A stretch of DNA of 64,000 nucleotides, from assembly GCA_965287045.1 (NCBI GenBank), contig OZ336881.1, positions 66,650,001 to 66,714,000 of the forward strand, written 5' to 3'. Positions within the stretch are counted from its first letter, which is position 1. Each line of letters begins with the position of its first letter. Below the pieces are notes generated by a model. The model saw nothing but the letters and a program-made list of their open reading frames with translations. It was not told the origin of the DNA and did no database searches. The position numbers and the translations under genes are program-made. This document shows, piece after piece, positions 4,844 to 49,505 of this stretch. This DNA comes from Carcharhinus amblyrhynchos (taxonomy: Eukaryota).

Positions 4844-6119
4844 TCAGCATTCCCTACAACACAGTTCAGTGGCTGCACTGACTGGCAGATCCTGCACATT
4901 GAACGTCGCCAGCTTGACCGCTGCCCCCGAGTTTTCCTTGGTGCCGCTCTTGGAACTCGAGTTGTCAGTTTTGTAAATTTGCGCCTGCATTTCGCAGTAG
5001 CCAAACTTGCTCAGCAGGATGAAGAAGTCCCTCCTGAACGCTTTTGTGAAGATTGCGTAGAGAAACGGATTTGCACAGGAGTTGAGCGGGTAAAACAATA
5101 CCAGCAGGATTTTCGCATTGGTCACGGTAATAAAAGGTGACTTGAAAGCCGCTGAAATAGCAAAGAATGAAATTGGAGCCATACACGTGAAGTCTGTGAA
5201 GATCAGAATCGCCATTCGTTTTGCAATCTTCGTGTCGCTGTTTTTCGAAACAAAATCAGGGTTTTTCACGGCTAAATATATTTTGACATAGCAAACACAA
5301 ATGATAATAAAGGCAATAACATTCAGCATCAGTAGGAATATAACATAAGCTTGGGAGATGGGCGTTTCTATATCCATGGGCAAACAGATGCTAACTTTCA
5401 TGTAATTGCTGATTCCTACAAGTGGCAGTGTTGCTACAATAAGGGAGAATATCCAGCCTCCGGCCATAATCACAACAGCGTGCCTTAATCGGAGCTTTCT
5501 GTCCATTTGCATAGCATGGGTGATCGTGTGCCATCTTTCGAAGGTAATCACCATCAGCGTGTACACAGAGAGCTCGCTGGCGAAAACGGTAAAGAAGCCA
5601 GCACTGGCACACCCGGCACCTGTCTGCCAATCTATGGCATAGTTGTAATACTGGCTTCTGGTACTCAAATCGACTGATGCAATAAGCAGCAAATAGAGGC
5701 CCATACAGAGATCGGCAAAAGCCAGGTTGCACATGAGGAAACGGGGGACCGTCAGCTTATTCTGACTAACCACCAGAACAATAAACACAACAAAGTTACC
5801 CACAATAGCAAGGACATTAATGAACCATATCAGCACTCTGAGGACATTGTACCCCATTATATCTTCACATGGGTTGAAGGCATCTGGTTCTGGAGTACAG
5901 ATGAGGTCTACCTTTGAGTGACAAAAGTCATAATCAAATGACACTGAATTTTCATATATTTCTTCTAAAGGTTCATAGTCATCATCAGGGGTACTTTCAG
6001 GAAAGTTTGAATCATTCTGTGAAGAAGGGTGCCTTTTCACTCCAGCAGAAACATTCTGTAAGCTCCTGTCTCCGAGTTGCAGTGGCTGCAGACCAAGATG
6101 AGGATAGTCATTCCCGAGA
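4844..6119 (-). CDS. LHCGR: LH/CG receptor terminal exon 11: hinge end, 7TM domain, C-tail
   Basis: ORF 4844..6133, with true start at the acceptor CTCTTCTCTGTGTCTGCTTATAG (AG 6121-6120). Contains [26 protein letters not shown] and NSCANPFLY. Ends EC*, as human LHCGR does. Confidence 0.96.
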
Positions 6120-7268
6120 CTATAAGCAGACACAGAGAAGAGATGGTTTATTAGGACCAGTGGATTTTATTTAACTTGTGCAAGGAAAATCCGCTTAGAA
6201 ACAAGTCATAGAATCTACAGAGCAGAAGGAGGCCATTTGACCCATTGAGCCTGCACTGACAACAATCCCACCCAGGTCCTATCCCTGTAACCCCATTTGT
6301 TTGCCCCACTAATCCCCTTGACACTAAGGGGCAATTTATCATGGCCAATCAACCTAATCCACACATCTTTAGGCTTGCAGTTTCATATCATAATCCTGGT
6401 ACTACAGGTTTCAAAAACACCAAACAGTTTCAGAGTTTCCTTCATCCATCACATTGTAACTGCAAGGTAGCATTATTTGCAAAAAAATAAATTAAGGGAA
6501 TGGTAAATTATAATGTATTGCTGAAAAAGGACATCTGCTGCTTTGGGGCAGTATGATGGCACTGTGCTAAAAAGTACTGCTGCCTCACAGTACCAGGGAC
6601 CTGGGTTCGATTCCCAGCTTGGGTTACTGTGCAGAGTTTGCACGTTCTCCCTGTGCCTGCTTGGATTTCCACTGGGTGCTCTGGTTTCCTGGTCAGGTGT
6701 ATTGGCCATGCTAAGTTCTCCCTCAATGTGCTGGAGTGTGGTGACGAGGGGATTTTCACAGAACTTCATTGCAGTGTTAACATAGAGCTACTTGTGACAC
6801 TAATAAATAAATAAACTTTTATCCTGCACTCATCACAAGAATAGATAAATGTGAAGGGAACAACTGTTTATACTGCACGAGAAGAGAGCTGGTTGGTTGG
6901 CAAGTGGATTCTGATTGTTAGAGGTGTTGCCATGGTGAATGTGCCAGTTAACTGAAAACTGACAGTTAACTGCCAAGTTTTGTTCAAATTCAAAGCAGGC
7001 AGGTTGACTCTGATTGGTGAAGGAATGACCAGGGATTGTCTAACAACTATTTTCTTAGTTGCAAAAGTCACAATGTGTGGACATGTTCTTTCTGTCTGCA
7101 AAGGACAGTGCCTTGTGTGTGAATATATGTAGCTTCTAACACACATTAAGTGAGCCACACTGCGTGCCCAACTGATGCTCTTAAATTGGTTGTCGGTGTA
7201 ATTCTTCACACAATTGGGATTATTTAGCAAATTCAAATTGTGGAATGACATCTAAAGTTGGACAGTTT

Positions 7269-11388: not shown

Positions 11389-13775
11389 CTGAAGGGAAAG
11401 GAACAATCAACTGTGTCCAGAATTGTTTTCTTTCCTCCTCCTCACCTCAAGGCAACAAGTTCCTGGCAGAGTAGGGGCCAAATATTCTCAGCTATCCGAC
11501 TCACTGATCAGTCCTTGCATGTGATTCTTTATAGTAAACACCAGCAAGCTGTCTAATTGCTGAGCCAATCCCATATTCATCCAGAATCACTCAGGACATG
11601 TTTTGCAAGGTGTTGCTATGTAGGGTGAGGAGTGAGAATGCTGATTAATGTTCTTTCCCTGGTTCTTGATTAGGGAGTCAATTTTACAGCCCTATTGCCC
11701 CTCTGTCGGAGATCAATGCACAGACTATAACGGCACAGTGGTTAGCACTGCTGTCTCACAGCACCAGGGACCTGAGTTCACTTCCCAGCTTGGGTCACTG
11801 TTCGTGTGATGTCTACACATTCTCCCCGTGTCTGCGTGGGTTACCTCCAAGTGCTCCAGTTTCCTCCCACAGTCCCAAAGATGTACTGGTTAGGTGCATT
11901 GGCCATGCTAAATTCTCCCTCAGTGTACCCGAAGTGTAGTGACTAGAAGATTTTCATAGTAACTTGATTGCAGTGTTAATGTAAGCCTACTTCTGACACT
12001 AAGATATAAACTTTAGAACTTGGTAATATCATGGCATCAGCTATATTTGCCACCTAAGATCACAAAACATTGATGAGCTTACCAAGAATTACTTCTCTGG
12101 CTTTAGTTTAGGGAAGATAAGACTTTATAATGCGAAGGGATAACATTTCAGAAGTGGAAAATGCTTATTGTCTGTTGGATTAATCTAACCTATCATGAAC
12201 TCCTCACCATTCCCACTGTTCTAAGGGAGGTAACCAACAGACAAAATTTTCAAAAAAAGCTTCCTGAAATTCTCATGTCCTTGATGATCAAGGAATACTT
12301 ATTGAATCGGAAACTAAACTTACAGCAGGGCACCTTGAATATTTTTAGCTTTGCCGTGTTGGAGGTTTTAAATGGCGTTTAATTGACTTCAGCACAAAAA
12401 CCCTGTTATAAATATCTTGGTAACTACAGTTAGCCTTATGTTCTAGGGAAAATTTAGGGTTGTTAGATAAATTTAAAGCTACAAAATACTTAGATGAAGA
12501 CAAAATAAGTAGAAGCAGCTGACACAGAATTCAAACACGAAGGCTACTTGACAAATCTGGTAGGAGTTTTTTGAGGAGTTGACTACAAACGCAGTATATT
12601 TGGTGTATATGACCTTGCCGAAAGCTACTGACACACTTTATCATATGGGAAATTGAATATTGCCAAAAAAAGATAAGTTTTTCGTTTTGCCCTCTTCTTG
12701 GCAGTTAACTGTCAGTCATCAGTTAAATAATGCTTTCTCCATAGCAATGTCTCTATTGTTCAGAATCTACTTGCCAAGCAATGAGCTTTCTTTTCCCATG
12801 AAGTATAGCTTGTTCCCTTTACAATTTGCTACTCTTGTGAATTGTCCTGATGAGTACAAGACATAAAACTTTGACAACGTGTCCTTTTTTAGCAATACTC
12901 AAATTCTGTACTACCAAATGACTATATGGAAAATTACTGGAGAAGATAAAGGGGCTAATTTTAATCTAACATGCCCAGCAGGAAATTGATGGGACGAAGT
13001 TGGCCACTCATGATATGCCTTGTTCAATTTTACTATTCATTGACCACAATGCAAAGTAATATTTGTTGCGACATATAATAGATGACTGCTAGGATCATAT
13101 CATTTCCCATCAGCTAGATTAGCTACATAGCATCCCTAATATGATACCCACTAAATGTCTCTTTTGCCAATGGCATTACACCACGGTCCTTTTCCTTCAG
13201 GAAAGGAGAACTGAAAAGAAAAAGATTTGAATGATTGCATCCTTACAGGAGGCTTTTCAGTTCATTGAGCCTTAACCAACAACAATCCCACACAGGCCCT
13301 ATCCCTGTAACCCCACATATTTACCCTACTAATCCCCCTGACAGTAAGGGGCAATTTAGCATGGCCAATCCACCTAAGCTGCACATCTTTGGAGTGTGGG
13401 AGGAAACTGGAGCATCTGAAGGAAACCCATGCAGGCACAGGGAGAATGTGCAAACTCCACACAGATGGGCCAGAATTGAACCCGGGTCCCTGGCGCCGTG
13501 AGGCAGCAATTCTAACCACTGTGCCACTGTGCTGCTCAGGATAGGAGAAAAGAATCGTAATGCATTAACATACATTTCTTGCCCAATGAATAACTGTTCC
13601 TGTACTAATGTGGTGTACATTTAAAATACGAGTGACTTCACTCATGGCCATTCTTAGTTTCGTTCATTTCTGCTTGTTTTTCTGGAGAACAGCTAACTGC
13701 TAAGATTGTAACTGCTTTGTTAGTCCTTCAGTGCACCACATAGATCAGGAACTTGATAAAATCACAAGAACTTAC

Positions 13776-13964
13776 CCATTCGACTTTTCCCAGTTTTTGA
13801 ATGCACAGCAGTGGCTGGGATATGTCAAATTTGCTTCCATCAGATTGACGAACTTTTCCAGTGACGGGAACCTTTTCAGGGAGTACGTGAAGCGAGCAGT
13901 AAGTTTCTGAATGAATTCCAACCCATAAGACGGAAGATGCTCAAGTGCAGTTGAAGAAACATCC
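13776..13964 (-). CDS. LHCGR: LH/CG receptor exon 9 (last LRRs + Cys box 2), 189 bp
   Basis: Lies within ORF 13772..14017. TTTTTGTTATAG acceptor, GTAAGT donor. [16 protein letters not shown]...[15 protein letters not shown] contains the invariant [10 protein letters not shown] motif. Confidence 0.95.
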
Positions 13965-15634
13965 CTATAACAAAAAGAAAAGTTGGGATATTCTTTTCTT
14001 CCAGCCCTGGTGACCAAGGAATTCCAATTTTATGAAAGAGAGTTCCAGATTTTCACTGCCCTTTGTTTAGTGAAATTGCTTCATTTATCAAAGCCCAGGT
14101 GACCTATATCGGAACTGTACAAGAAACAAAATATGTTGCCTTAGTTTCCAACCTCTCTTATCTTTACCTATGCTATTAATACCATCATGGTGATTTTTTT
14201 TTTAATCCATGGTATATGGGTGTCACTGATTTTAGCTGCATTTATTGCCCATTCTTAATTGCCCTTGAGAAGGTGGTGATGAGCTGCCTTCTTGAACTGC
14301 TGCAGTCCTTGTTTTGCAGCTACACTCACAGTGTTGTTAGGGAGGGAGTTCCAGAATTTGCCCCAGCAGCAGTGAAGGAACAGTGATATATTTCCAAGTC
14401 AGGACGGTGAGTGGCTTGCAATGCCTTCCAGGTGATGGTGTTTCCATGTATTTTCAGCCTTTGTCCTTCTAGGTGGTAATAGTCATGGGTTTAGAAGGGG
14501 CTGTCTATGAAACCTTGGTGAGTTCCTTCAGTGCATCTTGTGGATGGTATAAACAGCTGCCACTGTACATCAGCAGTAAAGGGAGTGCATGTTTTGGGGA
14601 GGAGGATGTGTTTCTTTCAAAGAGGGACCCTGCATTAGATCATTTGCATCCAACGCTACTACTTCCAACCCCTGCCTCCCCACACCCAGTGACCATACCT
14701 CCATGGCCTCATCCCACCCTGACTCACAACCTGGGTGCTACAGTGATCCCCTCATCCCACTCTGGCTTGCAGCAGCTGCTGCTCCTGGTGGCATTGCCTG
14801 TAGTGAAGAGCTGCTGGCTTTTGATTGGTCTGGCGTCCTGAATCCCAGGGAAAGCCTGACTTGATGGGCTGACTTGCAGACTCGATGGGCTGAAATGCCT
14901 TTTCTGCAGTGTATGACTCTATGATTGGGACTGTCCCACAGAAGCGAAACGTGTTTCCCACCAGTTCTCCAACCAGTAGCCTGAGCCCATATCAATTAGG
15001 TTAATTTCAGTCCATTTTTTTCTTTTCCCACTGGGGTAATGATCGCTCTAAAGTATCTTATATTGGATATCACCAATTCTGATATAATAGATTCAGTCAG
15101 TGATCATAGAATAGAATCATAGAACCACTGCAGTGCAGAAGGAGGCCATTCGGCCTATTGAGTCTGCACCAACCACAATCCCAACTGGGCCCCTATCCCC
15201 TTTTACCCTCACTACTCTCCTTAACACTAAGGGGCAATTTAGCATGGCCAGTCCACCTAACCCGCACATCTTTAGACAGTGGGAGGAAACCCATGCAGAC
15301 ATGGGGAGAACGTGCAAACTCCACAGACAGTGACCCAAGCCGGGAATGGAACCTGGGTCCCTGGCGTTGTGAGACAGCTGTGCTTTTCTTAATTAAAGAA
15401 TTCTACATGATAAAAGAGGAAATATGGAGAAAATAAATTACATAAAAATGGAGGAAATATGTATAGCATTAAGTTTATTTTCAATTCAAATGCTTAATTT
15501 GTAGTTTTGATGAGTAAATTTTACAAAAAGGCTTTTTAAATTAAGTTATTACACACACTGTAAATGCATAGTTTAAAATGAATATTCCTTACAATCTATA
15601 TGAAGTGAAAAGTAGATAAGTTGCAATTACTTAC

Positions 15635-27119: not shown

Positions 27120-27770
27120 CCATTTGATTTGGTTTATTATTGTCACATGAATTAGTATACAGTGATAAGTATTGTTTCTTGCACGCTATACAGACAAAGC
27201 AGAGTGTTCATAGAGAAGGAAAGGAGAGAGTGAAGAATCTAGTGTTACAGTCATAACTCGGGTGTAGAGAAAGATTAACTTAATATGAGGTAGATCCATT
27301 CAAAAATCTGATGGCAGCAGGGAAGAAGCTGTTCTTGAATCAATTGGCACATGACCTCAGACTTTAGTATCTTGTTCCCAACAGAAGAAGGTGGAAGAGA
27401 GTATGTTTGGGATGTGTGGGGTCCTTGATTATGCTGGCTGCTTTTCTGAGGCAATGGGAAGTGTAGTCCGAGTCAATGGATGGGCAGCTGGTTTGAGTAA
27501 TGGAGTGGGCTTTGCTCAGGATCCTTTGTAGTTCTTGCGGCCTTGGTCAGAACAAGAGCCATACTAAGCTGTCATACAACCAGAAAGAGTGCTTTCTATG
27601 GCGCATTTGCAAAGGTTGGTGAGAATTGAAGCGGACAGTCCAAACTTCCTTAGCCTCCTGAGAAAGTAGAGGCATTGGTGGACTTTCATATCTAGCATTG
27701 GTGTGGAGGACAGGACAGGTTGTTGGTGATCTGGACACTTAGAAGCTTGAAGCTCTTGACCATTCATTTT
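27120..27770 (-). mobile_element. Rex1/Babar-type LINE 3' fragment
   Basis: LYFLRRLRKFGLSASILTNLCKCAIESTLSGCMTA (ORF 27564..27827) and an (AAATC)n tail. Same family at 34977-35541(+) and 63806-64000(-). Confidence 0.75.
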
Positions 27771-33881: not shown

Positions 33882-34144
33882 TGATGTGGAGATGCTGGTG
33901 TTGGACTGGGGTAAACACAGTAAGAAGTCTCACAACACCAGGTTAAAGTCCAACAGGTTTATTTGGTAGCAAAAGCCACTAGCTTTCAGAGGGCTGCCCC
34001 TTCATCAGGTGAGTGGGAATTCTATTCACAAACAGGGCATTTAAAGATACAAACTCAATTTACAAAATAATGATTGGAATGTGAGTCTTTACGGGCAATC
34101 AAGTCTTAAGGGTACAGATAATGTGATGGAGAGAGCGTTAAGCA
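33882..34144 (-). mobile_element. Penelope-like element (family 1) 3' terminal repeat fragment
   Basis: Highly similar to 42857-43090 and to the reverse complement of 44270-44528. Confidence 0.8.
33977..34011 (-). ncRNA. Minimal type I hammerhead ribozyme motif (PLE family 1)
   Basis: cac-CUGAUGA-aggggcagcccucu-GAAA-GC-UA-gug: both core boxes intact, stem II forms, palindromic AGCU in place of stem III, short stem I cac/gug. Confidence 0.7.
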
Positions 34145-36170
34145 CGCTCTTGACTTTGAGTGCTAGTGCCCTCCTCCTTCCCCTGTCACAGCTCTTTGGT
34201 GAACAGGCTTGGCAAAATGGACAATTGTTTTTGAGATTCATGTCAAAACATCAGTTGCTTTGAGATCCCCATAGTACGTTCAACGTTGATCCTAGCAGAT
34301 GCATGGAGTTTGAAATACACAGTTGGGGTTGTGGTTAGGGCTGGTTTTTTTAGTTTGAGTTTGCTTTCACTTTGAAATAAGGATGTCACAAGGCATTCCA
34401 TTGGAATGACTGCATTTTGACAGCTGCCTGAAACATAGGAAATGGCCTGCAAGATTTTTATTTTACTCATTCCTGGGACATGGCTGACCAGCAGGGGGAG
34501 GGGTGGGGGGGGGCAGTGTTGGATTTTCTGCCCCTGTTTATGCTCATGATGATGCATAACTTCAGATCAAAGTGTGTCATGACTTCTGACTTAAGTAATG
34601 CCTCTTTAACTTGTATGAAGCCTCTGCATACTGAGCCACCCATCTCCATTTCCTGTTTTGACACAATAAGTTGTGTGAAGGCTTGAGAAACGTTGCTAGA
34701 TTAGGGACAGACCTCCCATAATAGTTTAATAAGACCAAAAATGATCAAAGTTGATTTACGTTTTGATGTGTAGGTGCCTCAGTTATGACTTTTACTTTTG
34801 AAGACAATTTGTGCAGTCCCTTTGCATCTCTGATGTGCCCCAGGTATTCAATCGAAGGTTTGAAGAATTCACATTTATCTTTCCGTGCTTGTAGTCTGTA
34901 GTCTTCTTGTTTCCGGAGTGCAGCATCCAAATTTTAAAGATGCTTTCCTTCATTCAGTCCGGTAACTAAGTTATCACAATGCCTCAACTTTCTCAGAAGA
35001 CTAAAGAAATTTGGCAAGTCAGCTATGACTCTCACCAACTTTTACAGATGCACCATAGACAGCATCCTTTCTGGTTGTATCACAGCTTGGTACGGCTCCT
35101 GATCTGCCCAAAACCGCAAGAAATTACAAAGAGTGATGAAGGAAGCCCAGTCCATCACTCAAACCAGCCTCCCACCCACTGACACCGTCTACATTTCCAC
35201 TGCCTCAGACAAGCTGCCAGCCTAATTAAAGACCCCGCCCACCTCAGACATACTGTCTTCTGTCTTCTTCTGTCAGGAAAAAGATCCAAAAGTCTGAGAA
35301 CATGTACCAACTGACTCAAGAACAGCTTCTTTCCTGCTGCCGTCAGATTTTTGAACGGACCTGCCTTGCATTAAGTTCATCTTTCTCTACACCCTAGCTA
35401 TGACTGTAACACTACTTTCTACACTCTCTCCTTTCCTTCTGTATGAACGGTATGCTTTGTCTGTACAGTGCACAAGAAACAATAGTTTTCACTGTATGTT
35501 AGTACATCTGTCAATAATAAATCAAATCAAATTAAATCAAAGTAGCACTGGACTCCTAGCCCGTTTAGAATTTGACCCATGGCATGCTGGAATAACGCAG
35601 GTACAGATGTGATACCAAATGGAAGTCTTTTATAACTGAATAGCCCTTTGTGTGTCACGATTGTCAAATATTGCTGTGAACCTGGATCCATATTTACCTG
35701 GAGATAAACTTGACTGAGGTCAACTTTACTGAAATGCTGGCCGCCCGCCAACCCAGCAAATAAATCATCAGTTGCTGGCAGAGGATACTGCCCTGCACAC
35801 AGTGCTGGATTGAGAGTGATTTTAAAATCACCACATATGCGTACAGAACCATTTTGCTTCATCACGGCGTGGCCCAATATCTGCCACAATTTTATTCGCA
35901 TGGACAATATAATTGAGCTCCAGCGCTCGGTGCTTTCGTCCTACCTCCCATAGTGCCAAACATTCCCACCATTTTTACCTCACCCTTATGAAAGGGCTTG
36001 AGCAGGATGTGCCACAAAATTTTTAGCACCACCTCGCTTCTTTTTTGCAAATAAGGTACCCCTGAACTCAACCCGTTTCCATCTCAGTTTTCCTTCACCA
36101 GCTGCTCTAAACCATTGTTGCAGGGTACTTGCTACTCACGATGCTCCCTGCACTGTTCCAGAACTTTCTG

Positions 36171-36356
36171 TGATGTGAAGATGCCGGCGTTGGACTGGGG
36201 TAAACAGAGTAAGAAGTCTCACAACACCAGGTTAAAGTCCAACAAGTTTATTTGGTAGCAAAATCCACTAGCTTTCGGAGTGCTGCTCCTTCATCAGGTA
36301 ACATTTGCTACCGAATGAACCTGTTGGACTTTAACCTGGTGTTGTGATTCTTCTTA
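36171..36356. mobile_element. Miniature palindromic Penelope-like insertion with 12-bp TSD
   Basis: Minus arm 36171-36299, plus arm 36305-36356. CAGAACTTTCTG at both 36159-36170 and 36357-36368. Confidence 0.8.
36266..36300 (-). ncRNA. Minimal type I hammerhead ribozyme motif (PLE family 1)
   Basis: uac-CUGAUGA-a-ggag-cagca-cucc-GAAA-GC-UA-gug. Confidence 0.7.
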
Positions 36357-37184
36357 CAGAACTTTCTGGACAGAGCGCGTTGCGATATTCTTTTCAATGT
36401 TTCCTCTTCGTTTATACTTTGGTTAATTGGACGGCTACTACCGATATTTGGCACGCCTCCATCATTAGCTTTGGTTTGGCAAAATTTTTATCTTCTTAAT
36501 CCTTAATGGATGGCTGCGGCATGGACTGGCGATTTTTCTCTTCTTCCACAGGATTTTCAGCAATTCTTTTTTTGGGTGCTTGCAGTGTGGATCAACCACC
36601 TCATCACCAGTTTTGTTTGTGGTATTTTTAAAGTAGAGGCTTACAGTTTACGAAAGTACAAAACAAACAAGAGCGTTATTGGAAAGGTGTTTGCTCTATG
36701 GGCTGTTAGGATAGACTGCCCATTTGCCCATCCAAATGGCCAATGGCATCATCAATATGGCATGTGATTGGACCCTTAAAACGACCTTGTTCCAAATAGA
36801 AACAAGCATCAATACACAACGATGGGGATAAGGCAGGAAAGTGGAGTTGAGGATTATTATATTAGAGCAGTTATGACCTCACTGAATGGCGTAATAGACT
36901 CAATGGGCCAAATGGCCTACTTCCGCTCCTATGTTTATGGTCTCATGGTTGGCTTTTCAACATCTAGCAACTGACTTGGTCATAAGCGATCAAAGAGCTG
37001 AAAACCTGAATGTAATAGAGTGCTGCAGAGATAAACCAAAGAAATGAAAAATGTCTCCTAATGGTAGAAAATATAATTTCCTAGCCAACATTTTTATCTT
37101 CACTGTTAAAGGCAGTAAAACATGAAGGACGTGGTATGATCCCATTGGTTTAGGTCAGCCTCTCACCTGTGTAGCTAATCTTTA

Positions 37185-42000: not shown

Positions 42001-42912
42001 AATTATATAAATACAAGATTCATCCAGCTATCCTTGTGCTTATTCAATTCCTAATGGAAAACGGAGTTACGTTACAAGCTGGTAAACTAACACTTTTCTC
42101 CATAGTAGCTGGGGGAGGAAAACTCCATACTCTTAAAGGGAGCAATATTGGGACCTATAAATGGAGTAGAAAGAGTAGATTTATAACACTATTACCTGAA
42201 ATCTCAATTACAGAACAGAAGGGTTTAAAACAATACAAGGCAATTTTGATGCTAGATCAGTTCTTTATGCAAAAAAAATAGAATTGCCTTCTGGATTTAT
42301 TATTGTAGAGAAAATCTCTGGCATTGTTCAAGTGGCATAGATTCATAGAGCCCCTACAGAAGCAAGCCATTCAGCCCATCGAGTCTGCACTGACTCTCTG
42401 ACAGAGCATACTACCAAGATCTCTATCCCTGTAACTTCAAACGTTTACCCCACTAATCCCCCTAAACTACACATTTGGGGACTTAAGCGGACACTTTTCC
42501 TATCCTGCCTGCCATGGAAATCATAGTGGGGGAGGGGAGGTAGATTGTGCAAAGATCTGTTGATCTCGGATGAGATTTTCAGGTTTTGGGGCGAGCGCAA
42601 TTTAGTATGGCCAATCAACCTAACCTGCACATATTTCGATTATGTGAGGAAACCAGAACACCCGGATGATATCCAAGCAGACACAGGGAGAACGTGCAAA
42701 GCCCACATTGACAGTGACCTAAGGCTGGAATTGAACCGGAATTCCTGGTACTGTGAGGCAGCAGTGCTAACCGCCGCGCTGGCACATATTTTCTGACGGG
42801 CTGACTTATTTGTCTGAGGGGATCTGGTGGATCTTCCTGATTTCCTGAAGGTACAGTAAGAAGTCTCACAACACCAGGTTAAAGTCCAATAGGTTTATTT
42901 GGTAGCAAAAGC

Positions 42913-42947
42913 TACTAGCTTTCGGAGCGCTGCCCCTTCATCAGGTG
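42913..42947 (-). ncRNA. Minimal type I hammerhead ribozyme motif (PLE family 1)
   Basis: cac-CUGAUGA-a-ggggc-agc-gcucc-GAAA-GC-UA-gua. Confidence 0.7.
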
Positions 42948-44398
42948 AGTGGGAGTTCTTTTCACAAACAGGGCACATAAAGACACAAACTCAATTTACA
43001 AAATGATGGTTGGAATCTGAGTCTTTACAGGTAATCAAGTCTTTAAGGTACAGACAGTGTGAGTGGAGAGAGGGTTAAGCACAGGTTAAAGAAATGTGTA
43101 TTGTCTCCAGACAGGACAGTTAGTGAGATTTTGCAAGCCTAGGCAAGTCGTGGGGGTTACAGATAGCGTGACATGAACCCAAGATCCCGGTTGAGGCCGT
43201 CCTCATATGTGCAGAATTTGGCTATCAGTCTCTGCTCAGCGACTCTGCGCTGTTGTGTGTTGTGAAGGCCACCCTGGAGAACACTTACCCGAAGATCAGA
43301 GGCTGAATGCTTGTGACCACTGAAGTGTTCCCCAACAGGAAGAGAACAGTCTTGCCTGGTGATTATCGAACGGTGTTCGTTCATCCGTTGTCGTAGTGTC
43401 TGCATTGTCTCCCCAGTGTACCATGCCTCAGGACATCCTTTCCTGCAGCGTATCAGGTAGACAACGTCGGCCGAGTTGCAAGTGTATGTACTGTGTACCT
43501 GGTGGATGGTCTCATTTGAGATGATGGCATTCATGTTGATATCCGGCATGTCTTGCAGAGATTACAGTGGCAGGGTTGTGTGGTGTCATGGTCACTGTTC
43601 TCCTGAAGGCTGGGTAGTTTGCTGCGGACAATGTTTGAGGTTATGTGGTTTGAGGTTATGTGGTTGCTTGAAGGCAAGAAGTGGGGGTGTGGGGATGGCC
43701 TTGGCGAGATGTTCATCAATGACATGTTGAAGGCTCAACGGAGCCTTCAGGGCAACAGTAACTATGACACCACACAACCCTCCCATAGCAACCTCTGCAG
43801 GACGTGCCGGATCATCAACATGGATGCCATCATCTCACGTGGGAACACCATTCAATAGGTACACGGCATATACTCTTGCAACTCGGCCAACGTTGTCTAC
43901 TTAATATGCTGCAGGAAAGGATGTCCTGAAGCATGGTACATTGGGGAGGCCATGCAGACGCTACGACAACAGATGAATGAACTCTGCTCGACAATCATCA
44001 GGCAAGAGTGTTTTCTTCCTGTTGGGGAACACTTCAGCAGTCATGGGCATTCAGCCTCTGATCTTTGGGCAAGGCGGCCTTCACAACACACGACAACACA
44101 GAATCGCTGAGCAGAGACTGACAGCCAAGTTCTGCATATGTGAGCACGCCCTCAACCGAGATCTTGGGTTCATGTTACACTATCTGCAACCCCCACGACT
44201 GCCTGGGCTTGCAAAATCTCACTAACTGTCCTGTCTGGAGACAATACACATCTCTTTAACCTATGCTAAACGCTCTCTCCACTCACATTGTCTGTACCTT
44301 TAAGACTTGATTACCTGTAAAGGCTCGCATTTCAAACCATTATTTTGTAAATTGAGTTTGTGTCTTCATATGCCCTGTTTGTGAATAGAACTCCCACT

Positions 44399-44433
44399 CA
44401 CCTGATGAAGAAACAGCGCTCTGAAAGCTAGTG
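44399..44433 (+). ncRNA. Minimal hammerhead motif (PLE family 1), weakened stem II
   Basis: cac-CUGAUGA-agaaacagcgcucu-GAAA-GC-UA-gug. Confidence 0.55.
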
Positions 44434-44974
44434 GCTTTTGCTACCAAATAAACCTGCTGGACTTTAACTGGGCGTTGTGAGACTTCTTACTGTGTTTACC
44501 CCAGTCCAATGCCAGCATCTCCACATCATTCCTGAAGGTACAGCAGGAAATCTGCAAAATTCCTAGGCCAGTGATATGAAGGGCCATTTTCAGGAGTTGC
44601 ACTGCTCCCGTGGAGGGTCAGTTAATCTTGTGTTTCCATTACATCAAGAGGGAGGCCTACTTAACCTGCAAAATGTCAGGACCCCTGTTTCTGAGGGGAT
44701 TTTCACAGTAACTTCATTGCAGTGTTGATGCAAGCCTCCTTGTGACACTAATAAATAAACTTTTTTTAAACTCCTGTAGAATGAAGAGATGGATAAGCCA
44801 AATGGCCTCCCCTAACTCCATTTACATTTGATGTCTTTGTGAAGCAGCACATAAACAAAAGTGAACATTAAATAAAACGTTTAATACTATGTGAACCACA
44901 AATGGTGCATCAAATACAAACAGCAATATAGGAAACATGCTTCTCAGAATCGAATGCAAATGAGGTTCTCTCAC

Positions 44975-45049
44975 AAGTATCTTAGGCGTGGTAGATTTCT
45001 GAAAGCTTCGTGATCAATTTTCACCAGGTGCTTTGTATTCTGAATTGAG
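44975..45049 (-). CDS. LHCGR: LH/CG receptor exon 4 (LRR), 75 bp
   Basis: Pyrimidine tract + CAG acceptor, GTGAG donor. SIQNTKHLVKIDHEAFRNLPRLRY(L). IQNTK is LHCGR-type (FSHR has IEKAN). Confidence 0.93.
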
Positions 45050-47370: not shown

Positions 47371-48439
47371 ATGTCCCACAACTGAATATAACCCACTGGG
47401 TCAATACTCTGAAACTCCCCAATTACAATGATGGGAGCACCATCAAAGTGATTGCAGCTGTCCAAGAAGTGGTTCGAGACAACCAGGGCTGGCCCATAAA
47501 TATGGAAATGTTAATGTAACCTGCATCCAGAAAACAAATCTTCACTGACTACAATAACAGTCTTTTCTGTCAGTAATCAGCATGCACTCCGCCACATGTT
47601 TCTAACTTACTCTCCTGAGACTCTCTGAAATAAACAGACTGAAACATCTTTCAATCTACTTAAACAGCTGAATTATCCTTTAGTTATGTCAGTTTACTGC
47701 CAAATGTTTTCCAACAAGCAGATAGAATCAGATTAGATTAAAAAGTCTTTGGGAGACAACCCATTTATTTAACCAGTGTGCTAAAAATACAATTCATGAT
47801 GTGATTGAGATTAGACTAAAATAACAATTTAAAAGCCCAAACTTGTTTTTAACCGTCTCGCAGAGCTTCCTTGGCAGTGGTCATGTTGGGTGGAATTTAA
47901 TGCCCTCCCTCCTGAGTTTGGAGGTGGGGGTGGGTTGGGAGGTATTTAATCCTCAGGGAAGTTGCCTGATGGTGACCTTGCTGCCTTCCATCTCTGCCCT
48001 ATTTAAGTCCGGGGTGAGAACTCATGGATGGACTTCCTGCCCTGATGCCAATCAAAGCCTTTAAGTGGGCAGGGCTTGTTGCTATGCGGGAAAGCTCAAA
48101 AGAAAACACTGTCATGTTGACTCTGGGGGTGGGGCTGGGGTTGGGGGGCAGAGGAGGAGGGGTTGTTGGGGGACTGGGGCGTTGGTGGCAGGATGGTGTG
48201 GAGGGGATGCTTCATTATCAGGCATTGAGTCACCGTGAGCCTAACTGAGGAAGCCAGCATCGGATAGGGAGGGGTTCATTGGAATTCAACACCAGCCATT
48301 TCTTCCAGCCTGGGCTCTCACCTCCCTCCTCATTCACTTGTGGATGGGGTTCCTTACTGATCCTGGGCTTCTGGGTGTGTGCATTGCCAGCAGCTACCAT
48401 CGTTCCCTTGGAGGCGCTGATGAGCTTCTGATGCTCTGA

Positions 48440-49505
48440 TGAGGAGAATTGCAACAGACACCTACAGACGCTGAAAGATGCCCTCATAAGAACAGAATAA
48501 CTCATTGATCGACAGTTTTGACATGCCACTGCGAAAAACCACGCTGACCTCCTCATCAGAAGACAAACACGGGACAGGGCAGACAGAATACCCTTCGTCG
48601 TCTAGTACTTCACCGGAACAGAGAAGCTACAACATCTTCTCAGGAGCCTTCAACATGTCATCAGTGAAGATGAACATCTCGCCAAGGCCATCCCCACACC
48701 TCCACTTCTTGCCTTCAAACAACTGCACAACCTCAAACAGACGATTGTCCGCAGCAAACTACCCAGCCTTTAGGAGAACAGTGACAACGACACCACACAA
48801 CCCTGCCAGAGCAACCTCTGCAAGATGTGCCAGATCATTGACACGGATGCCATCATCTCACGTGAGAACACCACCCACCAGGTACATGGTACATACACTT
48901 GCAACCCGGCCAACGTTGTCTACTTGATATGCTGCAGGAAAGGATGTCCCGAGGCATGGTACACTGAAAAGACCATGCAGACGCTATGACACGGATGAAT
49001 GAACACGGCTCGACAATCACCAGGCAGGTGTGTTTTCTTTCTGTCGGGGAACTCTTCAGCAGTCATGGGCATTCAGCCTCTGATCTTGAGGTAAGCATTC
49101 TCCAAGGCGGCCTTCATGACGTATGACAATGCAGAATCGCTGAGCAGAAACTAATAACCAAGTTCCGCACACATGAGGACGGCCTCAACCTGGATCTTGG
49201 GTTCATGTCACACTACCTGTAACCCCCACAACTTGCTTGGGCTTGTAAAATCTCACTAACTGTCCTCACTGGAGACAATACACACCACTTTAACCTGCCT
49301 GTGCTTAACCCTCTCTCCACTCAGATTGTCTGTACCTTTAAGACTCGCATTCGAACCATTATCTTGTAAACTGAGTTTGTGTCTATATATGCCCTGTTTG
49401 CGAACACAACTCCTCACTCACCTGAAGAAGGAGTGACACTCCGAAAGCTTGTGCTACCAAATAAACCTGTTGGACTTTAACCTGGTGTTGTGAGACTACT
49501 TACTG
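48440..49505 (+). mobile_element. Penelope-like element (family 1), 5'-truncated
   Basis: Colinear with 43741-44490. Includes RT thumb/linker, GIY-YIG remnant and terminal repeat. Inserted in a GC-rich TIR-like element starting ~47888. Confidence 0.85.
49419..49453 (+). ncRNA. Minimal type I hammerhead ribozyme motif (PLE family 1)
   Basis: cac-CUGAAGA-a-ggagu-gac-acucc-GAAA-GC-UU-gug: perfect stem II and AAGCUU palindrome. Confidence 0.72.

What the first reader, a model, noticed from the sequence alone, without database searches (positions are those of the whole stretch)
42842..44543. 1.7-kb palindromic Penelope insertion with TSD and a perfect hairpin at the inversion point
Seen: two ~800-bp GIY-YIG + terminal-repeat arms with 3' ends facing outward, flanked by a 15-bp direct repeat (the last 4 bases may be microhomology). 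The centre is TGAAGGCTC-aacg-GAGCCTTCA (43728-43749), after which the plus arm resumes at an internal AGCCTTCA microhomology, skipping roughly 120 bp. Only the right arm has the 3' extension. Established: PLEs often show inverted termini and an optional short tail, but second-strand synthesis is poorly understood. Inference: the cDNA folded back, self-primed and was copied to the second target nick, which is a mechanistic footprint. It would also form a very long dsRNA hairpin in intron 4, 450 nt downstream of exon 4, pairing one hammerhead with its antisense.
Basis: partly seen in the sequence, partly recalled or inferred. Interest (0 to 1): 0.7.

Follow-up and report, generated by a model that had tools for sequence, protein, structure and literature searches.

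The report
Old double-primed Penelope mirror insertion
This 1.7-kb mirror-image stretch is a real, old insertion of a Penelope-type jumping gene in a layout already described for that class, and dozens of younger copies in the same genome indicate that each half was likely copied separately from RNA at the two ends of one DNA cut rather than one half folding back to copy the other.

Summary
The coordinates, 15-bp target duplication, one-sided tail, central hairpin and 120-nt skip are all real. Contigs from two other organisms bridge the centre, so it is old and no assembly artefact. The layout is the published Penelope-like inverted insertion, and it is common here: 11 of 26 sites in 464 kb. 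Whole-arm fold-back is not supported. Each arm holds sequence the other lacks, the arms are 86% alike, and they share 0-1 private variants. In 124 loci of a young sister family, 74 of 74 complete inverted copies have exactly one tailed and one tail-less end. The tailed arm is the shorter in 40, the arms share a source in 63 of 65, and duplications are mostly 12-13 nt. Best reading: both nicks of one staggered cut each prime reverse transcription, one at each start site, and the two cDNAs are joined head to head by microhomology. The hairpin is the family's own 8-bp palindrome CTCCGGAG, a recurrent joining point, plus an 8-bp repeat 120 nt on. The scan noted this layout and a similar reading before in other genomes.

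The parts
42842..42856 (.). Left copy of target-site duplication (15 nt; last 4 nt also fit the element's tail-less end)
42857..43736 (-). Left arm: 5'-truncated Penelope-like copy, 3' end outward, no tail; begins inside the family palindrome CTCCGGAG
42913..42947 (-). Minimal hammerhead-like motif (CTGATGA ... GAAA); helix II can pair, helix I has a mismatch; read by eye, no Rfam hit
   Evidence: PMC4209133 passages
43160..43561 (-). Open 134-aa frame of the GIY-YIG endonuclease end
   Evidence: Pfam PF01541 E 0.0016, below the gathering score
43633..43662 (.). 15-bp tandem duplication private to the left arm, inside the stretch the right arm lacks
43728..43749 (.). Inversion point: 9-bp stem with AACG loop = left arm end + AA filler (43737-38) + CGGAGCCTTCA (family positions 1360-1370)
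   Evidence: bridged in organisms B and D
43742..44493 (+). Right arm core, from the second AGCCTTCA (family position 1483) to the tail-less end; has an 11-bp deletion
44399..44433 (+). Second hammerhead-like motif, helix II disrupted
44494..44528 (+). Tail (~36 nt); in full-length young copies this stretch lies just before the ORF's ATG
44529..44543 (.). Right copy of target-site duplication
44975..45049 (-). 75-nt exon of the host glycoprotein-hormone receptor gene (FSHR/LHCGR-like), 432 nt from the insertion
   Evidence: last exon at 4847-6166 matches FSHR and LHCGR about equally

Best explanation
This is one old insertion of an endonuclease-bearing Penelope-like element whose two arms were likely each reverse-transcribed from RNA, one from each 3' end of a single staggered cut, and then likely joined head to head. 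Inferred steps: (1) the element's protein nicks both strands about 12-13 nt apart; (2) one nick primes at the downstream start site (tail) and the other at the upstream start site (no tail); (3) both cDNAs stop early; (4) their 3' ends are joined by 0-6 nt of microhomology or a short filler, and host repair fills in. At this locus both cDNAs most likely ended at the family's self-complementary CTCCGGAG and were joined with an AA filler, and 120 nt between two AGCCTTCA repeats were lost from the right arm before organisms B and D split (about 50%). A 6-11 nt snap-back is the main alternative for the centre (about 30%). The insertion is now a decayed intronic repeat with no sign of function.
For: Shown at the locus: one duplication around both arms, one tail, and sequence private to each arm. 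Young sister family, 124 loci: 86 head-to-head pairs; 74 of 74 with both outer ends in view have one tail and one tail-less end; tailed arm shorter in 40, longer in 28, within 10 nt in 6; arms closer to each other than to the median other locus in 63 of 65 (0.78% vs 2.06%; shared variants 463 vs 141). Duplication found in 71 of 74, 12-13 nt in 53. Microhomology of 2 nt or more in 37 of 63 filler-free junctions vs 16% by chance. Older family: 27 of 29 complete pairs have one tail; tailed arm shorter in 11, longer in 12, within 10 nt in 4. CTCCGGAG is the family majority at the inversion point; 10 of 86 young junction loci have an end near it; L147 and L232 are near-symmetric there with AA or A before CGGAG, as at this locus. 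In vitro, the anole Poseidon protein nicks and extends both strands, starts at two sites that bound the tail, and is predicted to be a dimer (PMC11167929, parts 1-2 of 4 read).
Against: This locus does not show the same-source signal seen in young pairs: the arms differ at 8 of 21 polymorphic sites, like unrelated copies (35%), against 70 of 304 in 23 other old pairs (Fisher p 0.12; transversions 3 of 5 vs 10 of 61, p 0.048). Two different RNAs, or later gene conversion, are therefore possible here. The old family is star-like, so power is low. The clustering of ends at CTCCGGAG is significant only as a window chosen in advance (p 0.0015), not in a scan (p 0.11), and the RNA stem there is not better than shuffles (z -0.91). 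No other copy with the 120-nt loss was found genome-wide, and young near-perfect palindromes persist without such loss. 38 of 124 young loci show one arm only, some with a duplication, so double priming is not obligatory. The young loci were chosen from top protein hits and are biased to long arms. All mechanism is inferred from end products.
Confidence: 0.72

Rival explanations
1. Whole-arm fold-back (first reader; related to the self-priming idea of PMC3846280): one cDNA self-primes at the hairpin and is copied to the second nick.
For: Perfect 9-bp stem at the centre, 0.07% by chance for random asymmetric junctions. Young arms share a source. Near-symmetric junctions are in excess: 7 of 86 vs 1.6 expected, p 0.00075; these few could be true fold-backs.
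Against: Each arm here has sequence the other lacks. The tailed arm is the shorter in 40 of 74 young pairs. Tail-less ends fall in a narrow window (unit 2983-2992 in 63 of 74), as a start site would. No shared private variants here. Stems of 8 bp or more at only 2 of 74 asymmetric junctions.
Confidence: 0.07
2. Double priming as in the best explanation, but the centre was made by a short snap-back: the left cDNA end folded on CTC/GAG, gained CCTTCA, and used the new AGCCTTCA to anneal to the right cDNA (snap-back SD-MMEJ). No later deletion is needed.
For: One event uses both the palindrome and the 8-bp repeat. L186 has a short sense piece starting at the same palindrome and then a jump to a far right arm; L181 and L232 have templated duplications there. 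The mechanism is described in PMC2943611 (passages read). It needs no equal-length arms and so fits arms from different RNAs.
Against: The AA sits where L147 and L232 have filler between two arms, which suits a join better than a slip inside one arm. It needs the right cDNA to end close to position 1483.
Confidence: 0.3
3. The hairpin is a coincidence: the left arm runs through CTCCGGAG, the right starts at AGCCTTCA, and they share only AG.
For: 2-nt microhomology is the commonest junction class (16 of 86). The family has over 13,000 candidate copies of this region, so a 0.07% event would occur several times. The exact pattern is unique in the genome.
Against: Needs a separate AA insertion at the palindrome centre. 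Stems of 8 bp or more are commoner in real asymmetric junctions (2 of 74) than by chance (0.3-0.4%).
Confidence: 0.13
4. Two separate insertions, the second landing at the 5' end of the first.
For: Arms differ at polymorphic sites like unrelated copies; they do not pair in the tree.
Against: One duplication flanks both arms, no second duplication is seen at the centre, and the one-tail layout matches 74 of 74 young single events. Other old pairs also fail to pair in the star-like tree.
Confidence: 0.04
5. Assembly artefact.
For: Palindromes can be made by fold-back reads (general knowledge).
Against: Arms differ by 14%; centre and both outer junctions are in contigs of other organisms.
Confidence: 0.01

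Closest known systems
Insertion unit of EN+ Penelope-like elements with inverted 5'-truncated copy, one-sided 30-40-bp tail and TSD (Craig et al. 2021, PMC8557442; Arkhipova et al. 2013, PMC3846280; passages read)
   Same: Head-to-head inverted copy, tail at one end only, duplication, palindrome at the inverted junction.
   Different: Both arms here are 5'-truncated, with no full ORF. In the passages read, PMC3846280 takes junction palindromes as self-priming and PMC8557442 ascribes the tail to endonuclease resolution; the counts here point to two priming events.
Poseidon of Anolis carolinensis in vitro (Frangieh et al. 2024, PMC11167929; parts 1-2 of 4 read)
   Same: Two start sites that bound the tail, both strands nicked and extended, predicted dimer, tail next to the ORF start.
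   Different: The parts read report no difference in start site between strands, leave second-strand synthesis open and give no model for inverted insertions; the genome data here show the two sites used in a strictly paired way.
L1 twin priming (recalled; no call)
   Same: Both nicks prime on RNA and the cDNAs are joined by short microhomology, giving an inversion.
   Different: L1 arms cover different parts of the RNA; here both arms cover the same 3' stretch and begin at two fixed sites about 38 nt apart.
Snap-back synthesis-dependent MMEJ (Yu and McVey 2010, PMC2943611; passages read)
   Same: A short inverted repeat spanning the junction and new microhomology made by limited synthesis.
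   Different: Described for repair of chromosome breaks, not for joining two cDNA ends; here only one of three parses of the centre.

Membership tests
EN+ Penelope-like element | Single ORF with reverse transcriptase and C-terminal GIY-YIG endonuclease | tested here: met
   Left arm frame hits GIY-YIG weakly (E 0.0016, below gathering score). A sister copy has a 917-aa frame with RVT_1 (E 1.2e-9; no GIY-YIG hit at E 0.01) that ends in the same domain (84% identity).
EN+ Penelope-like element | Pseudo-LTRs from partial tandems | tested here: met
   L139, L150, L151, L196 and L217 show a 3' piece in tandem before a longer copy; not present at this locus itself.
EN+ Penelope-like element | Optional 30-40-bp tail at one end | tested here: met
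   44494-44528; 74 of 74 complete young pairs.
EN+ Penelope-like element | Target-site duplication | tested here: met
   15 nt here; 71 of 74 in the young family.
EN+ Penelope-like element | Minimal hammerhead in the terminal repeat | tested here: inconclusive
   Core motifs present by eye in both arms; no Rfam hammerhead match; free folding does not give the ribozyme fold; cleavage not testable.
Penelope/Poseidon clade | RT phylogeny; no extra zinc finger between RT and EN | not tested
   No RT tree against named clades was built.
Whole-arm fold-back product | Second arm wholly contained in the first | tested here: not met
   Left has 120 nt the right lacks; right has the tail.
Whole-arm fold-back product | Arms share private variants | tested here: inconclusive
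   0-1 shared vs 2.2-2.5 control; 8 of 21 polymorphic sites differ; low power.
Snap-back SD-MMEJ junction | Junction inside one half of a short inverted repeat, with primer repeat and microhomology | tested here: inconclusive
   Fits the letters (CTC/GAG primer, AGCCTTCA microhomology), but so does a symmetric join plus deletion.
Edited or diced intronic dsRNA | A-to-I editing or small RNAs from the arms | not testable with these tools
   No raw RNA reads were laid; see Tried and rejected.

The most novel reading that the evidence does not exclude
A Penelope dimer cuts both strands 12-13 nt apart and its two reverse transcriptases copy one and the same RNA molecule, one from each of the two start sites, the second displacing the first cDNA. 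The inverted copy is then a second first strand, not a second strand. This would explain the strict one-tail rule (74 of 74), same-source arms (63 of 65) and the excess of arms that stop at the same base (7 of 86).
Probability: 0.4. Interest if true: 0.65.

Novelty: new member of a known kind. Interest (0 to 1): 0.4.

Why it matters
The locus itself is an ordinary dead repeat. The family counts matter more: how Penelope-like elements finish insertion, and why they make inverted copies with one tail, is stated as open in PMC11167929 and PMC8557442. Strict pairing of the two start sites, a near-fixed 12-13-nt stagger and same-source arms argue against self-priming as the general route. They give a sharp prediction for the existing in vitro system. 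Such insertions also seed many long inverted repeats in introns (11 of 26 sites in 464 kb).

Tried and rejected
Rfam at gathering score over the window: 0 hits; at E up to 5 over the insertion: 2 irrelevant weak hits. Exact junction pattern: only this locus. Relaxed pattern: this locus, L232/L233 (one place) and two matches that lie outside any aligned copy of the element, about the control level. A family variant with the 120-nt loss: 0 matches with up to 1 mismatch, so a deleted source element is unlikely. Tree of 67 arms: star-like, uninformative for the two arms. RNA stem as a reverse-transcriptase stop at CTCCGGAG: z -0.91, not supported. Hidden tiny second arms in the 36 single-armed young loci that could be read: none convincing. 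Empty site in relatives: none seen, but the joint table was swamped by repeat contigs and cut; runs X5 and X7 did not bridge the centre, which proves nothing. No RNA holder listed, so editing and small RNAs were not examined. Literature searches for a paired double-priming model listed none by title; the library lacks most subscription papers, older reviews cited in these papers (2005, 2006) were not read, and no supplements were opened, so prior statement is possible. Rows dropped: duplicate loci (L001, L071, L082, L101, L102, L106, L110, L122, L123, L191, L233, L234); pattern-found L232, L235, L236 kept out of the young counts; 6 of the 150 hit rows not fetched for the young set; 12 of 86 pairs lacked a scorable outer end (one, L217, scored tail/tail only because a tandem arm's outer end lay beyond the locus); 21 of 86 pairs overlapped too little for the source test.

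Full report
Observation. The sequence shows an exact 15-nt direct repeat at 42842-42856 and 44529-44543 around two outward-facing arms. The arms align over 764 columns at 86.4%. The left arm carries an open 134-aa GIY-YIG-type frame. Only the right arm continues into a ~36-nt tail. The centre reads TGAAGGCTC-AACG-GAGCCTTCA, and the right arm lacks 120 nt that the left has. The host is a glycoprotein-hormone receptor gene on the minus strand, matching FSHR and LHCGR about equally; a 75-nt exon ends 432 nt away. That it is exon 4, and that the genome is a shark's, are recalled resemblances and come from no call.

It is real and old. Single contigs from organisms B and D bridge the centre with 3 and 5 other letters, in 2 of 4 runs laid. 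The right junction is in organism C and the left in organism B. The arms differ from the family majority by 4.1% and 6.7% at non-CpG sites. Hairpin, AA and skip therefore predate the split of those organisms.

What the hairpin is made of. Other copies read CTCCGGAGCCTTCA at this point. CTCCGGAG is its own reverse complement, and AGCCTTCA recurs 120 nt downstream. The centre is thus left arm + AA + CGGAGCCTTCA + the right arm from the second repeat. Three parses fit: a near-symmetric join at the palindrome followed by loss of 120 nt; a short snap-back that made the microhomology (PMC2943611, passages); or a plain 2-nt join with a chance stem (0.07% of 38,180 simulated junctions). The exact pattern is unique in the genome, and no family variant with the 120-nt loss was found.

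Are the arms copies of each other? Among 67 aligned arms the two share 1 derived non-CpG variant against a mean of 2.45 for random pairs; a second projection gave 0 against 2.2. They differ at 8 of 21 polymorphic sites, like unrelated copies (35%), while 23 other old pairs differ at 70 of 304 (p 0.12; transversions p 0.048). The tree is star-like. One duplication and one tail still mark a single event.

How common is the layout? In 464 kb of contiguous sequence, 11 of 26 insertion sites are head-to-head pairs. Across these and 57 loci found by DNA search there were 54 pairs; of 29 with both ends scorable, 27 have one tail and 2 appear to have none.

A young sister family gave a cleaner test. 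A protein search listed 150 rows, many near-identical; 124 loci were analysed. They are biased to long arms, and 18 were chosen because both arms were listed. 86 hold a head-to-head pair. All 74 with both outer ends in view have exactly one tailed and one tail-less end. The tailed arm is shorter by over 10 nt in 40, longer in 28 and within 10 nt in 6. In 63 of 65 pairs with enough overlap the arms are closer to each other than to the median other locus (0.78% vs 2.06%); L139 and L201 are the exceptions. Duplications were found in 71 of 74, 12-13 nt in 53. Junctions have 0-6 nt of microhomology in 63 and filler in 23; 37 of the 63 have 2 nt or more against 16% by chance. Near-symmetric junctions are in excess, 7 of 86 vs 1.6 (p 0.00075). 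Stems of 8 bp or more occur in 2 of 74 asymmetric junctions. 38 loci have one arm only.

What this says about mechanism (inference). A copy of a first cDNA cannot be longer at the centre than its template, and cannot gain a tail its template lacks. Copying from the tailed arm fails in 40 of 74 cases, and copying from the tail-less arm fails in all 74. Both arms are better read as first strands, each primed at one nick of a 12-13-nt staggered cut. This agrees with the anole Poseidon protein, which nicks and extends both strands, starts at two sites that bound the tail and is predicted to dimerise (PMC11167929, parts 1-2 of 4). Same-source arms and equal stopping points suggest, without proving, one RNA for both. 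Homogenisation by conversion is an unlikely cause, since old pairs have drifted apart by up to about twice their distance to the majority.

The same palindrome recurs as a joining point. Ten of 86 young junction loci have an end near CTCCGGAG; the cluster has p 0.0015 for a window chosen in advance but 0.11 in a scan. L147 and L232 are near-symmetric there with AA or A before CGGAG, as at this locus; L181, L186 and L232 carry short templated pieces. The filler pattern favours join-then-loss (about 50%) over snap-back (about 30%) and chance (about 13%); these odds are my judgement.

RNA consequences. The minus-strand pre-mRNA is predicted to form about 684 long-range pairs, with 12 helices of 21 bp or more and the longest 62 bp. 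This is a prediction only. The hammerhead-like cores are decayed, and single minimal hammerheads showed no cleavage in vitro (PMC4209133, passages).

Comparison with what is known. Inverted truncated copy, one-sided tail and duplication are the described layout (PMC8557442, passages; PMC3846280, outline and passages), and the latter already infers self-priming from junction palindromes. My searches listed no paper stating paired use of the two start sites, within the limits of the library. Earlier notes of this scan reached a similar reading on other genomes; I had recorded my reading before opening them, did not check their loci, and do not count them as support.

Verdict. A real, old, dead insertion of a known kind. 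The fold-back reading is not supported for the arms and only possible for a few bases at the centre. The interest lies in the family-wide counts, which make a specific, testable model. Interest 0.4.

Noticed in passing
window 36171-36357: A 190-bp head-to-head pair of the same family, tail on the left, no tail on the right, flanked by a 12-nt duplication (CAGAACTTTCTG).
   Followed up: partly
window 33882-34145 and 48432-49505: Single-armed copies of the same family, one tailed and one tail-less, each with an apparent 12-nt duplication.
   Followed up: partly
L232:1451-1637: Inverted insertion whose centre holds three extra 64-nt copies, all starting at the CTCCGGAG palindrome, as if the polymerase re-copied the same template end several times.
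   Followed up: partly
L129, L141, L143, L211: Young near-perfect palindromes with very long arms and loops of 1-5 nt persist in the genome.
   Followed up: no
L150, L151 and other rows: The young sister family has copies with uninterrupted frames up to 917 aa and about 1-2% divergence, so it moved recently. The tail lies directly before the ORF's start codon.
   Followed up: partly
L139: Inverted arm, tandem piece and full-length copy all differ from each other (11-17 changes), so one insertion can combine different templates.
   Followed up: partly
window 27122-27677 and 34977-35532; 35530-35940 (-): An 81%-alike inverted pair of another repeat beside a frame that resembles an LTR-retrotransposon reverse transcriptase (resemblance recalled).
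   Followed up: no
window 4847-6166 (-), 13775-14029 (-): Last exons of the FSHR/LHCGR-like host gene; which of the two it is was not settled.
   Followed up: partly
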